The position numbers and the translations under genes are program-made. From Planktothrix pseudagardhii (lineage in GTDB: Bacteria; Cyanobacteriota; Cyanobacteriia; Cyanobacteriales; Microcoleaceae), in NCBI RefSeq assembly GCF_904830925.1, contig NZ_LR882967.1, positions 3,362,106 through 3,426,105 of the forward strand: a stretch of 64,000 nt of DNA, read 5' to 3'. Of the stretch, positions 55,091 through 57,061 are shown one piece after another. Numbering within the stretch: the first letter of the stretch is position 1; each line of letters begins with the position of its first letter. A model generated the notes under the pieces. The model was given only the letters and a program-made list of their open reading frames with translations. It was not told the origin of the DNA and did no database searches.

Positions 55091-57061
55091 ATGGATGTTG
55101 TCAAAGTTTTAAGCTTAAAAAATCAGCTAATTAATATCGTAGAAAAAATACAATTATCTCTTAGCAGTTCTGAACTTGACTCTTCTAATATTTTGCAATT
55201 TATACAAGAAATTAAACCCGATTTAAAAACCATAAATACTAAAATCAACGACGAGAAAAGAAATCATTCAGTTTTTGGTGCGCTTGATCAGTTATCGTTC
55301 ATGGATGCTAATCAAGATACTGCAAAACAAGAGAAAATTCAATATGCTAAACGCCTAGATTTGATGAATCAGATTGCTATTGATAGCGGGTTATTATTGA
55401 ATCTTGTTGAGTTACTAGAATATTACTTTGATTCTGAACAATATCCCGTGATTAAAAATGCTCTCTGCTATTTAGTCGATATTATTTTAATCGAATTAAA
55501 CAACTGGACAGATGAGAACGATAGTAGAGAATTTATAGAAAAATATGATTGGAGTCGCTTAATTGATTCTTTAATGCAGTTTGAACAATCCCTTAATTTA
55601 ACCTCTGCTAATCCTTTAATTACTCAATCTGAAATTAATATTAATTCAATTTTTGCTCATTTGCAAACTTATCGCTTGCGTTTAAATGAACAGTATGAAC
55701 AATTAATTCAAACTTCCCTTGAGTTACAGCGTCAGCAAGAAGCAGAATTACAACGTCAACAGGAATTAGAATTACAGCGTCAACAGGAATTAGAATTACA
55801 GCGTCAACAGGAAGAAGAATTACAACGTCAACGGGAATTAGAATTACAACGTCAACAGGAATTAGAATTACAACGTCAGCAAGAATTAGAATTACAACGT
55901 CAACAAGAATTAGAATTACAGCGTCAGCAAGAATTAGAATTACAACGTCAACAAGAGTCAGAATTACAGCGTCAACAGGAATTAGAATTACAACGTCAAC
56001 AGGAATTAGAATTACAACGTCAACAAGAGTCAGAATTACAGCGTCAACAAGAGTCAGAATTACAACGCCAGCAAAAAGCAGAATTAAAGCGTCAACAGGA
56101 AGCAGAGTTAAAGCGTCAACGGGAATTAGAATTACAGCGTCAACAACAGGAAGAATTACAACGCCAGCAAGAAGCAGAATTACAGCGTCAACGGGAATTA
56201 GAATTACAGCGTCAACAACAGGAAGAATTACAACGTCAACGGGAAGAAGAATTACAACGTCAACGGGAATTAGAATTACAACGTCAACAGGAATTAGAAT
56301 TAAAGCGTCAGCAAGAATTAGAATTACAACGTCAGCAAGAATTAGAATTACAACGTCAACAAGAATTAGAATTACAGCGTCAACAGGAAGAAGAATTACA
56401 ACGTCAGCAACAGGAAGAATTGCGACATCAACGCGAAGCTGAATTAAAACAGAAAAAGGAAAAAGAAATTCGTCAGTTAATGATAATTGTTGCTGCTGTA
56501 ATCTTATTAGGAGGACTTGGACTGTTAATTTTTAATCCTTTTAAGTCTAAGCAAGAAAATCCAAATATTTTGGCTTCAGAAACTCCTCAAAGTCGTTTAG
56601 ATACGGCTGAAAAGTTAGCAGTAGAAGCATCCAAACTCATTGAAAATCCTCCCCATCCTTTAACGGTTTGGCAACAAGCTCAAACTCAATTGCAAGATGC
56701 TATTCAACTATTAGAAGCAATACCTAAAAATTATTCTGACTCTGAAAAAATCAACCAAAAATTACAAATTTATCAAAAAGATTATAACTCCATTAGCCAA
56801 ATTTTAAATAAAGAACAAAAAGCAACAAATGATTTAGAATCTGCTAAAAAACTTGCTATGGAAGCATCAGTTATGCTGCAAAATCCTCCAGAATCTCTGA
56901 GTGTTTGGCAGGAATCAGAACAAAAATGGAAACAATCTATTAATTTACTTGAATCTATTCCTAAAGATTCTTTTATTTATCCTGAAAGTCAAGATCGACT
57001 AAAAATTTATCGAACAAATCATGAAGCAGTAGCCCAAAAAAACCAGCAGAAAAATCAATAA
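55091..57061 (+). CDS. Membrane-anchored coiled-coil protein with about 30 tandem (ELELQRQQ) octad repeats and a duplicated C-terminal module
   Basis: N-terminal ~210-aa domain. About 240 aa of QRQQELELQRQQ repeats. One TM helix (IIVAAVILLGGLGLLIF). C-terminal region with two homologous ~60-aa units (AEKLAVEASKLIENPPHPLTVWQQAQTQLQDAIQLLEAIPKNYSDSEKINQKLQIY / AKKLAMEASVMLQNPPESLSVWQESEQKWKQSINLLESIPKDSFIYPESQDRLKIY). Confidence 0.6.
   Translation: MDVVKVLSLKNQLINIVEKIQLSLSSSELDSSNILQFIQEIKPDLKTINTKINDEKRNHSVFGALDQLSFMDANQDTAKQEKIQYAKRLDLMNQIAIDSGLLLNLVELLEYYFDSEQYPVIKNALCYLVDIILIELNNWTDENDSREFIEKYDWSRLIDSLMQFEQSLNLTSANPLITQSEININSIFAHLQTYRLRLNEQYEQLIQTSLELQRQQEAELQRQQELELQRQQELELQRQQEEELQRQRELELQRQQELELQRQQELELQRQQELELQRQQELELQRQQESELQRQQELELQRQQELELQRQQESELQRQQESELQRQQKAELKRQQEAELKRQRELELQRQQQEELQRQQEAELQRQRELELQRQQQEELQRQREEELQRQRELELQRQQELELKRQQELELQRQQELELQRQQELELQRQQEEELQRQQQEELRHQREAELKQKKEKEIRQLMIIVAAVILLGGLGLLIFNPFKSKQENPNILASETPQSRLDTAEKLAVEASKLIENPPHPLTVWQQAQTQLQDAIQLLEAIPKNYSDSEKINQKLQIYQKDYNSISQILNKEQKATNDLESAKKLAMEASVMLQNPPESLSVWQESEQKWKQSINLLESIPKDSFIYPESQDRLKIYRTNHEAVAQKNQQKNQ
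55721..56450. repeat. About 30 tandem 24-bp repeats (consensus CAGCGTCAACAGGAATTAGAATTA) within the coding sequence
   Basis: Read directly from the sequence. Units vary at the gaa/tca/gca positions and occasional 27-bp units occur (QQQEELQRQ). Confidence 0.9.

What the first reader, a model, noticed from the sequence alone, without database searches (positions are those of the whole stretch)
55091..57061. Membrane protein whose core is about 30 perfect 24-bp repeats encoding (ELELQRQQ)n, with a duplicated C-terminal module
The 656-aa protein has an N-terminal globular part and about 240 aa of octad repeats. These should form a long charged single alpha-helix or coiled-coil rod of roughly 35 nm. 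It also has one TM helix and two homologous ~60-aa extracytoplasmic units (..EAS....NPP..L.VWQ......W..SI.LLE.IPK...). The DNA repeat is a near-perfect 24-mer, so the length of the rod should vary by slippage. This works as a ruler or spacer, and it is not an architecture I can assign to a known family.
Basis: seen in the sequence. Interest (0 to 1): 0.65.

Follow-up and report, generated by a model that had tools for sequence, protein, structure and literature searches.

The report
Membrane tether with hypervariable helical spacer
A Planktothrix (cyanobacterium) gene encodes a single-pass membrane protein whose two conserved ends are joined by a stiff-looking helical spacer built from about 30 copies of an 8-residue repeat; the copy number differs up to five-fold between otherwise near-identical strains, and neither the protein's family nor its function has been described.

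Summary
The ORF (55091-57061, +, 656 aa) is real. It has a helical N-domain, 30 in-register octads (consensus ELELQRQQ), one TM helix and two homologous C-terminal modules. The DNA repeat is not "perfect": units are 87.5% identical to consensus and there are 21 DNA variants. The source is a Planktothrix species. Nine orthologous alleles all keep the same 404 non-repeat residues, but their rods run from 51 to 252 aa. Alleles with 100% identical flanks differ only by clean in-frame unit indels, so the predicted length polymorphism is confirmed. That variability argues against a fixed-length ruler. The rod has no heptad or hendecad hydrophobic seam and carries dense E-R-E i/i+3 charge networks, so it looks like a single alpha-helix rather than a coiled coil. 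This is predicted, not shown. Each C-terminal module is modelled with confidence as an MIT/TPR-like three-helix bundle. The module defines a large cyanobacterial family absent from Pfam (794 cluster representatives) and almost always follows a signal peptide or membrane anchor, so the C-terminus is extracytoplasmic and the rod cytoplasmic. Best reading: a variable-reach transmembrane tether of unknown partners. All relatives are annotated "hypothetical protein". Moderately interesting.

The parts
55078..55083 (+). Shine-Dalgarno-like AGGAGG, 7 nt upstream of the ATG
   Evidence: Read directly from the sequence.
55091..57061 (+). Complete ORF of 656 aa including the stop codon: a bitopic membrane protein
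   Evidence: Orthologues are intact in at least 8 Planktothrix alleles. dN/dS against the P. agardhii-type allele is 0.37 for the N flank and 0.38 for the C flank.
55091..55714 (+). N-terminal domain (aa 1-208), an all-helical bundle, inferred to be cytoplasmic
   Evidence: AF2 model has pLDDT 74.5 and pTM 0.73, and its last helix (aa 184-214) runs into the first octad. No significant PDB fold match. Homologues occur in Planktothrix, Limnoraphis and a few unnamed cyanobacteria.
55715..56434 (+). 30 in-register 24-bp units encoding octads (aa 209-448), consensus GAATTAGAATTACAACGTCAACAA = ELELQRQQ; predicted rod of about 36 nm
   Evidence: E3, L4 and Q7 are invariant and R6 is present in 29 of 30 units; position 2 varies (L, A, E or S). 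There are 0 hydrophobic seam networks and 56 E-R-E charge networks.
56435..56476 (+). Degenerate 31st unit plus the basic juxtamembrane stretch (EAELKQKKEKEIRQ, aa 449-462)
   Evidence: There are five K/R on this side of the TM helix against two on the other side, which by the positive-inside rule predicts N-in.
56477..56533 (+). Single transmembrane helix LMIIVAAVILLGGLGLLIF (aa 463-481)
   Evidence: Kyte-Doolittle 19-residue mean is 2.96, the only such segment in the protein.
56582..56812 (+). C-terminal module 1 (aa 498-574), an MIT/TPR-like three-helix unit with the motif A..LA.EA....NPPHP..VWQ......AI.LLE.IP
56813..57058 (+). C-terminal module 2 (aa 575-656), homologous to module 1
   Evidence: 26 of 68 residues identical to module 1, z = 21.5. 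In the AF2 model, helix 3 of module 1 continues into helix 1 of module 2.
57067..57086 (.). Short GC-containing hairpin, followed on the + strand by ATTCCTTTTT; a possible weak terminator
   Evidence: The scan flagged this hairpin on the - strand. The + strand T-run was read. This is a consensus match only.

Best explanation
The gene encodes a single-pass (N-in, C-out) membrane tether belonging to an uncharacterised cyanobacterial family.

- A conserved helical N-domain sits in the cytoplasm.
- A conserved pair of MIT/TPR-like three-helix modules sits on the far side of the membrane, in the periplasm or possibly the thylakoid lumen. By analogy with that fold, the modules probably bind a protein or peptide partner.
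- The two ends are joined by a Q/E/R/L-rich rod that is probably a stable single alpha-helix held by E-R-E (i, i+3) salt-bridge networks, not a coiled coil.
- In Planktothrix this rod is encoded by a 24-bp tandem array (48-bp super-units in some lineages). The array gains and loses whole units in frame, by slippage or unequal recombination, faster than point mutations accumulate.
- As a result, strains carry rods of about 8 to 38 nm; this window has the longest seen.
- The spacer therefore sets a variable reach rather than a fixed measured distance.

Shown: the anatomy, family membership, length polymorphism, purifying selection on the flanks, and the confident helical fold of the C-terminal modules.

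Inferred: topology, helical monomeric state of the rod, ligand binding, which membrane the protein sits in, and any phenotype of rod length.
For: Anatomy.

Source and orthologues:
- N-domain hits are only from Planktothrix.
- Nine alleles have flanks of exactly 404 aa and rods of 51, 78, 99, 131, 132, 135, 151, 168, 218 and 252 aa. A 519-aa variant sits in the same 90% cluster.
- P0009 and P0160 have 100% identical flanks but rods of 51 and 99 aa. P0162 and P0163 have 100% identical flanks but rods of 135 and 168 aa.
- The 572-aa allele is nucleotide-identical in three independent metagenomes. The 555-aa and 539-aa alleles differ from it by 51-nt and 51+48-nt in-frame deletions plus one SNP each.
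- Expansions are lineage-specific and of different ages: 24-nt units at 85% matches here, 48-nt units at 95% in L002.

Rod:
- Hydrophobic power at periods 3.5-3.67 is about 0, and Leu is spread evenly round an ideal helix.
- There are 61 attractive i+3 pairs and 19 attractive i+4 pairs against 5 repulsive pairs.
- Using the network definitions of the Waggawagga paper (PMC5812594), there are 0 hydrophobic seam networks and 56 charge networks.
- Some alleles contain 9-residue units, so a strict helical register is not required.

Topology:
- More K/R on the N side of the TM helix, and no signal peptide.
- In 151 representatives the module follows a long N part plus TM in 87, and a signal or anchor within 60 aa in 42 (6 of these lipobox-like). 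Only 2 have a TM after the module.

C-terminal modules:
- AF2 pLDDT 90.6.

Selection and conserved architecture:
- Flank dN/dS is 0.37-0.38.
- Orthologues in other genera keep the same N-domain, TM helix and two modules with unrelated Q/E/K/R-rich linkers of about 40-300 aa.
Against: - No experiment exists for any family member; every source name is 'hypothetical protein'.
- The rod is only 43% charged (77% if Q is counted) and has net charge -20.
- The Limnoraphis orthologue's rod has 43 hydrophobic seam networks and a 3.67-residue periodicity, so it looks coiled-coil-like. Oligomerisation may therefore be the ancestral state.
- The P. serta orthologue has lost its C-terminal modules and dN/dS is only moderately low, so the gene is dispensable in at least one lineage.
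- Three assemblies carry 1-2 nt frameshifts. I read these as homopolymer assembly errors, but that is not proven.
- Plasma membrane and thylakoid membrane cannot be told apart with these data.
Confidence: 0.55

Rival explanations
1. Fixed-length molecular ruler. The rod measures a specific distance, for example membrane to an internal structure, and its length is functionally set.
For: The rod would be stiff and about 36 nm long if helical. The Limnoraphis orthologue also has a rod of about 300 aa. Natural rulers such as YscP also contain repeats (from my own knowledge).
Against: Rod length varies from 51 to 252 aa among Planktothrix alleles, including alleles with 100% identical flanks. It varies from about 40 to 300 aa among orthologues in other genera. 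Nostoc-type relatives have almost no rod. A measured distance would not be expected to tolerate five-fold variation unless the measured structure varies with it.
Confidence: 0.1
2. Coiled-coil oligomerisation or cytoskeletal element. The repeat mediates dimer or polymer formation, like the cyanobacterial coiled-coil-rich proteins.
For: The Limnoraphis orthologue's rod has 43 hydrophobic i/i+3/i+4 networks and a hendecad-like 3.67 periodicity. Q-rich helices can self-associate (from my own knowledge). Cyanobacterial coiled-coil-rich proteins such as SepT and SepJ act at membranes (PMC10653889).
Against: The window's rod has zero seam networks and no power at periods 3.5-3.67. Only one Leu per octad is conserved, and an 8-residue spacing rotates it by 80 degrees per unit. 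Nine-residue units are tolerated.
Confidence: 0.15
3. Functionally neutral low-complexity expansion. The linker only has to connect the two ends; the array drifts in size, and the long version here has no specific role and may be partly disordered.
For: - Extreme copy-number variation.
- Relaxed dN/dS of 0.37.
- Truncated orthologue in P. serta.
- Frameshifted copies in three assemblies.
Against: - All eight intact alleles keep the frame.
- The ELQRQ core is invariant while synonymous sites are scrambled: 37 differences in synonymous codons, and at most 4 identical DNA units against 17 identical peptides. This indicates selection on the peptide.
- A Q/E/K/R-rich helical linker is retained in every orthologue with this N-domain.
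Confidence: 0.17
4. Assembly artefact. The copy number in this window is inflated or mis-joined.
For: Tandem arrays are error-prone. One homologue breaks at a contig end inside the repeat (P0003).
Against: The longest exact internal repeat is 68 nt, shorter than normal reads. Units carry 21 distinct variants in a unique order. The array is in frame. The complete-genome MAG L002 has a comparably long array of 27 octads.
Confidence: 0.03

Closest known systems
Stable single alpha-helix (SAH, ER/K) domains, e.g. the lever extensions of myosin-6/10, caldesmon and trichohyalin
   Same: A long, non-globular helix-favouring segment with no hydrophobic seam and dense opposite-charge i/i+3 networks. 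It joins two domains as a semi-rigid spacer (definitions from PMC5812594 and PMC5378345). Its E/R/Q/L composition resembles trichohyalin (from my own knowledge).
   Different: - Only 43% charged, 34% Gln, net charge -20.
- Bridges are almost all i/i+3 (E-R-E) rather than mixed i/i+4.
- It is a strict 8-residue tandem repeat.
- It is bacterial, membrane-anchored, and varies in copy number between strains.
- Its helicity is untested.
GvpC length variants in Planktothrix (33-residue repeats; GvpC16/20/24/26/28/40)
   Same: Same genus. A structural protein built of repeats whose number differs between strains. For GvpC the length variants are linked to the gas-vesicle phenotype (PMC5259702).
   Different: Unrelated sequence. 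GvpC is a soluble protein that binds gas vesicles, with far fewer and longer repeats. No phenotype is known for the protein described here.
MIT and tandem-MIT domains (Vps4, spastin, Atg1 tMIT, Vta1/LIP5, calpain-7) and TPR-like three-helix units
   Different: Sequence identity is 8-19% and no Pfam MIT or TPR model passes threshold. The module is extracytoplasmic and cyanobacterial, with its own NPPHP...W...W motif. The resemblance is in fold only.
TolA and TonB (membrane-anchored proteins with a long rigid spacer and a terminal binding domain)
   Same: One TM helix, a long extended low-complexity spacer and a small terminal binding domain. The function depends on spanning a compartment (from my own knowledge).
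   Different: In TolA and TonB the spacer is periplasmic and C-terminal to the anchor. Here it is N-terminal to the anchor and inferred to be cytoplasmic. There is no sequence similarity and no ExbBD/TolQR-type partner genes nearby.
Cyanobacterial septal and coiled-coil-rich proteins (SepT/All2460, CyDiv/All2320, SepJ, ZipN)
   Same: Found in filamentous cyanobacteria. They are membrane-anchored with long helical regions and link the cytoplasm to the envelope.
   Different: SepT has two N-terminal TM domains and a cytoplasmic C-terminus (PMC10653889). CyDiv is 197 aa with a C-terminal TM helix and a periplasmic N-terminus (PMC4748335). Neither has this architecture, so I rejected both as the same family.

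Membership tests
Uncharacterised cyanobacterial 'NPPHP-W-W' three-helix module family (no Pfam entry) | Significant profile match to the tandem C-terminal module | tested here: met
   A profile of A1 finds 794 cluster representatives at E<=1e-3 and 488 at E<=1e-10. There are 63 genomic loci in Planktothrix, Nostoc, Anabaena, Floridaenema, Phormidium and others. The window ORF scores 381 bits.
Uncharacterised cyanobacterial 'NPPHP-W-W' three-helix module family (no Pfam entry) | The module lies directly after a signal peptide or membrane anchor, i.e. it is extracytoplasmic | tested here: met
   129 of 144 full-length representatives have a hydrophobic segment before the modules, and only 2 have one after. 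In the window protein the TM helix is aa 463-481 and the modules start at aa 498.
Planktothrix-type orthologue group (N-domain + rod + TM + 2 modules) | Homologous N-terminal domain together with the same downstream architecture | tested here: met
   Local jackhmmer recovers P0001-4, P0009, P0016 (Limnoraphis), P0023, P0028, P0059, P0067 and L002 at E<=1e-43. All have a Q/E/K/R-rich linker, a TM helix and two modules.
Nostoc-type relatives (about 490 aa) | Homologous N-terminal domain | tested here: inconclusive
   hhalign gives E=0.16, and E=0.02 at 2% probability with deeper alignments. Only the first ~60 residues look alike.
SAH / ER-K single alpha-helix domain | Very high E/K/R content (about 80% of positions charged or N/Q, per PMC5812594) | tested here: inconclusive
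   43% charged, or 77% when Q is included; net charge -20.
SAH / ER-K single alpha-helix domain | Dense opposite-charge i/i+3 and i/i+4 networks and no hydrophobic seam | tested here: met
   56 charge networks and 0 hydrophobic networks; 80 attractive pairs against 5 repulsive pairs.
SAH / ER-K single alpha-helix domain | Monomeric, stable helix in solution | not testable with these tools
   Needs CD, AUC or SAXS.
Canonical coiled coil | Heptad or hendecad periodicity of hydrophobic residues forming a continuous seam | tested here: not met
   Power at periods 3.5, 3.6 and 3.67 is 0.08, 0.03 and 0.00, against 5.8 at period 8. Leu is spread evenly around the helix. There are zero seam networks.
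MIT domain (Pfam PF04212) / TPR | Sequence-profile match above the curated threshold | tested here: not met
   No MIT hit. ARM_TT21 scores 20.4 bits against a 27-bit cut-off, and TPR_6/TPR_7 are sub-threshold.
MIT domain (Pfam PF04212) / TPR | Three-helix-bundle fold | tested here: met
SepT (All2460) | Two N-terminal TM domains and a cytoplasmic coiled-coil C-terminal part | tested here: not met
   The window protein has one TM helix at aa 463-481. SepT is described in PMC10653889.
CyDiv (All2320) | About 197 aa, with an N-terminal coiled coil and a TM helix near the C-terminus | tested here: not met
   656 aa with a different architecture. CyDiv is described in PMC4748335.
In-frame VNTR / protein-length polymorphic locus | Repeat unit a multiple of 3, and copy number differing between otherwise near-identical strains | tested here: met
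   Units are 24, 27 or 48 nt. Alleles with 99.8-100% identical flanks differ by 48-nt and 51-nt indels.

The most novel reading that the evidence does not exclude
Array copy number may act as a heritable, fast-mutating dial for cell ultrastructure. In this reading the protein is anchored in the thylakoid or plasma membrane, and its cytoplasmic rod (8-38 nm, the scale of a phycobilisome layer or the plasma-membrane-to-thylakoid gap) sets how far a cytoplasmic partner or a neighbouring membrane is held away. Planktothrix strains carrying different alleles would then differ in membrane spacing, much as gvpC length variants tune gas vesicles.

The only hints are gene neighbourhoods:
- Orthologues in two other genera sit immediately upstream of apcA-apcB-apcC on the same strand.
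- A cpcT/cpeT-like gene and sqdB (thylakoid sulfolipid) lie upstream in Planktothrix.
Probability: 0.1. Interest if true: 0.75.

Novelty: new variant of a known kind. Interest (0 to 1): 0.48.

Why it matters
Three reasons.

1. Nature supplies a graded series of spacer lengths (51 to 252 residues) in one protein on an otherwise constant background. That series makes it directly testable whether spacer length matters, and whether a Gln-rich E-R-E octad forms a stable single alpha-helix.

2. It exposes a large cyanobacteria-specific extracytoplasmic module family with no Pfam model and no studied member: 794 cluster representatives, found in bitopic proteins, lipoproteins and multi-module arrays.

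3. The array is a ready-made, highly polymorphic in-frame VNTR. It could serve for typing strains of bloom-forming Planktothrix in culture collections and metagenomes.

It does not yet bear on any long-standing open question, because no function is known.

Tried and rejected
- Pfam, NCBIfam, PADLOC and PHROGs on the whole protein and on its parts gave nothing above threshold.
- PDB sequence searches with the rod and with the module profile gave nothing.
- Foldseek against the PDB gave no hit at E<=1e-3 for either model.
- The afdb50 library was unavailable.
- SepT and CyDiv were considered as the same family and rejected on architecture.
- Pfam on 70 diverse module-bearing proteins showed essentially no partner domains: one kinase, one WD40 and one M43 peptidase.
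- The gene neighbourhood of 63 loci, mostly Nostoc, showed a divergent amidase upstream and opposite-strand peptidases downstream. There was no co-oriented partner gene and so no functional clue.
- The N-domains of the Planktothrix type and the Nostoc type could not be shown to be homologous.
- A metagenome scan with an N-domain alignment first failed for lack of conserved stretches, then returned a single truncated locus.
- A beta-solenoid or cross-beta reading, suggested by the strong period-2 signal of ELEL, was rejected. The composition is E, L, Q and R, all strong helix formers, with no G, P, N or beta-branched residues, and the AF2 helix 184-214 runs into the first octad.
- An exact look-up of the window protein found no identical sequence on record.
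Full report
**1. Observation**

The ORF at 55091..57061 (+) is the only ORF of 60 aa or more over that stretch. It starts with ATG and encodes 656 aa. AGGAGG lies 7 nt upstream of the start.

Tandem Repeats Finder reports one array at 55724-56410: period 24, 28.6 copies, 85% matches, no indels. Cutting the DNA in register from nt 55715 gives 30 octads (aa 209-448) and a degenerate 31st unit.
- 17 of the 30 units are exactly ELELQRQQ.
- There are 13 peptide variants and 21 DNA variants.
- Mean identity to the consensus GAATTAGAATTACAACGTCAACAA is 87.5%.
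- The longest exact period-24 self-match is 36 nt, and the longest exact internal repeat at any offset is 68 nt.

The array is therefore real and far beyond chance, but it is not "perfect". Within units, E3, L4 and Q7 are invariant and R6 is present in 29 of 30. Position 2 is L, A, E or S. The CAA/CAG choices are scrambled: 37 differences fall in synonymous codons and 53 in non-synonymous codons. The peptide is thus better conserved than the DNA.

One hydrophobic segment (aa 463-481, Kyte-Doolittle 2.96) is the only TM candidate. The two C-terminal units (aa 498-574 and 575-656) share 26 of 68 residues, z = 21.5 against shuffles.

**2. Source and orthologues**

The N-domain finds only Planktothrix proteins among 5.8 billion sequences. 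The flanking DNA is 88-91% identical to P. agardhii. The window protein itself is not on record, and its closest allele (P0165, "Planktothrix sp." MAG) is 91% identical in the flanks.

Nine alleles all have exactly 404 non-rod residues, while rod length varies:

| Allele | Rod length (aa) |
|---|---|
| Window | 252 |
| L002 (13 copies of a 16-aa super-unit) | 218 |
| P0163 | 168 |
| P0164 | 151 |
| P0162 | 135 |
| P0165 | 132 |
| P0161 | 131 |
| P0160 | 99 |
| P. serta (degenerate) | 78 |
| P0009 | 51 |

. A 519-aa variant also shares the 90% cluster of P0160.

P0009 and P0160 have 100% identical flanks, as do P0162 and P0163. At the DNA level the 572-aa allele is identical in three independent metagenomes. 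The 555-aa allele differs from it by one 51-nt in-frame deletion plus one SNP. The 539-aa allele differs by 51-nt and 48-nt deletions plus one SNP. Gain and loss of units therefore outpaces point substitution.

The arrays differ in unit structure and in age: 24 nt at 85% matches here, 48 nt at 95% in L002, and mixed 24/51 nt in L069. Each lineage has therefore expanded its array independently.

Three assemblies (L001, L065, L002) carry 1-2 nt frameshifts, two of them at homopolymer runs. I take these to be assembly errors, because intact alleles of the same clade exist, but this is an inference. P. serta PCC 8927 has truly lost the C-terminal modules.

dN/dS between the window and a P. agardhii-type allele is 0.37 for the N flank and 0.38 for the C flank, with dS 0.195. 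This is purifying but fairly relaxed selection.

**3. The wider family**

A profile of the tandem C-terminal module, scored against 1.84 billion cluster representatives, finds 794 proteins at E<=1e-3 and 488 at E<=1e-10. A genome scan finds 63 loci, in Planktothrix, Floridaenema, Phormidium and many Nostoc, Anabaena and related genera. Every source name is "hypothetical protein", and every named organism is a cyanobacterium.

Pfam finds essentially no other domains in 70 diverse members. Of 151 representatives:
- 87 have a long N part, then a TM helix, then modules.
- 42 have a signal peptide or anchor within the first 60 residues, then modules; 6 of these have a lipobox-like motif.
- Only 2 have a TM helix after a module.

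Together with the basic cluster on the N side of the TM helix and the absence of a signal peptide, this places the modules outside the cytoplasm and the N-domain and rod inside. Cyanobacteria also have lumenal lipoproteins (from my own knowledge), so periplasm and thylakoid lumen cannot be distinguished.

Proteins with the same N-domain occur outside Planktothrix, in Limnoraphis robusta (P0016, 678 aa) and four unnamed cyanobacteria. All keep the order N-domain, linker, TM helix, two modules. Their linkers are unrelated in detail but are always Q/E/K/R/L-rich, run from about 40 to about 300 aa, and contain E[IL]KRQQQ-like motifs. The Planktothrix octad therefore looks like an amplified piece of an ancestral helical linker.

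Nostoc-type relatives have a different or unrecognisably diverged N-domain (hhalign E = 0.16 and 0.02) and almost no rod.

**4. Structure**

- Spastin, katanin, LIP5 and calpain-7 also match.

All of these are at 8-19% identity. This is fold resemblance only, and no Pfam model passes threshold.

*N-domain.* The model is a helical bundle of moderate confidence (pLDDT 74.5) with no significant structural neighbour.

*Rod.* E, L, Q and R are all strong helix formers (from my own knowledge), and the last N-domain helix runs into the first octad.
- Hydrophobic periodicity at 3.5-3.67 residues is absent, and Leu is spread evenly round an ideal helix.
- There are 61 i/i+3 and 19 i/i+4 attractive charge pairs against 5 repulsive pairs.
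- Using the network definitions of the Waggawagga single alpha-helix predictor (PMC5812594), the rod has 0 hydrophobic seam networks and 56 E-R-E charge networks. The Limnoraphis rod has 43 seam networks and a 3.67 periodicity.
- Nine-residue units occur in some alleles, which a register-dependent coiled coil would not tolerate.

I conclude that the window's rod is more likely a single alpha-helix-type rod than a coiled coil. Its charged fraction (43%, or 77% with Gln) is below classic ER/K domains, and its state remains a prediction. As a helix, 240-252 residues would span 36-38 nm, and the shortest allele would span about 8 nm.

**5. Mechanism**

The best-supported reading is a bitopic tether. 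An extracytoplasmic tandem three-helix domain, probably binding a peptide or protein by analogy with MIT and TPR folds, is coupled across the membrane to a cytoplasmic helical domain held at the end of a semi-rigid spacer. Spacer length is set by a fast-mutating in-frame tandem array.

Length varies five-fold between strains with identical flanks, so a fixed-length ruler is unlikely. The data fit a variable-reach spacer whose peptide character, but not its exact length, is under selection. Partners, membrane and phenotype are unknown.

Rivals and their weights are listed in the Rival explanations section: a fixed ruler, a coiled-coil oligomeriser, a neutral low-complexity expansion and an assembly artefact.

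**6. Context**

In P. agardhii the gene follows sqdB directly. A terminator-like hairpin follows sqdB in the window, so the gene probably has its own promoter.

In two other genera the orthologue lies just upstream of apcA-apcB-apcC on the same strand. Planktothrix has a cpcT/cpeT-like gene and sqdB upstream. This is a weak lead towards thylakoids and phycobilisomes and may simply reflect shared ancestry. In Nostoc the neighbours are uninformative.

**7. Comparison, novelty and verdict**

The thing is a recognisable kind: a membrane-anchored protein with a repeat-encoded helical spacer that is length-polymorphic. GvpC is a precedent in the same genus (PMC5259702), and there are functional analogies to single alpha-helix domains and to TolA/TonB-like spacers.

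The family, the octad single alpha-helix-like motif, the cytoplasmic location of a hypervariable spacer and the extracytoplasmic module are all undescribed. I rate it a new variant of a known kind, interest 0.48.

Noticed in passing
window 54065-54493 and 54498-54974 (+): Two ORFs inserted between sqdB and the rod gene are absent from P. agardhii (about 1045 bp extra). They match the anti-phage system PD-T4-10: component A at E 1.3e-35 over the full profile, and component B at E 1.5e-34 over only profile positions 2-128 of 353, so B looks truncated. The second ORF also hits DUF6575.
   Followed up: partly
window 57138-57241 (the spurious ORF 57165-57356 overlaps it): A degenerate copy of the 3' end of sqdB lies just downstream of the rod gene. 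It is about 78% identical to the P. agardhii sqdB 3' end and has a 9-nt deletion. Homology to P. agardhii ends at this point, so it looks like a rearrangement scar.
   Followed up: partly
window 57244-62235 (-): A 1663-aa PKS module (KS-AT-ACP, luciferase-like monooxygenase, thioesterase) replaces the genes found downstream of the rod gene in P. agardhii: two small ORFs, KGK and a cytochrome c assembly gene.
   Followed up: partly
L066 (P. serta PCC 8927) 1677-2908 and 3001-3942: The same intergenic site between sqdB and the rod gene holds a different two-ORF insertion: a 244-aa protein with a PF00502 phycobilisome domain plus a 162-aa ORF. The rod gene there is truncated after the TM helix, with degenerate repeats. 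The site looks like an insertion hotspot.
   Followed up: partly
L075 6370-7865; L077 8270-9776; L078 4868-6374: In two other cyanobacterial genera the orthologue sits upstream of apcA-apcB-apcC on the same strand. L074, L075 and L079 share the upstream block Thioredoxin_2, DUF3285, YbeY, DAGK on the opposite strand.
   Followed up: partly
L001 about 6670-6690; L065 about 2990-3000; L002 about 4725-4740: One- or two-nucleotide frameshifts split the orthologue in three large-contig assemblies; L001 and L002 are at A or T homopolymer runs, L065 was not pinpointed. They are probably long-read consensus errors rather than pseudogenes, because intact alleles of the same clade exist.
   Followed up: partly
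L001 2850-4628 (also L065 and L067): A group II intron reverse transcriptase (RVT_N, RVT_1, GIIM, HNH) lies between the cpcT/cpeT-like gene and sqdB in P. agardhii loci. It is absent from the window, where the two flanks abut at about 52824/52825.
   Followed up: no
L054 451-3387; P0010 (983 aa): A larger relative (about 980 aa) has four tandem copies of the Nostoc-type N-terminal unit, a TM helix and three to four C-terminal modules. Both ends of the family can therefore be amplified as whole domains.
   Followed up: no
L004 and L056 (Floridaenema, Phormidium), between the TM helix and the modules: These relatives have an ER/K-type stretch before the TM helix (EEERRRLEAEEKRRIEEERRRLEAEEKR). 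After it they have a second repeat of about 17 residues (..PN.EQQTS.NLE..Q.), i.e. an extracytoplasmic repeat linker as well.
   Followed up: no
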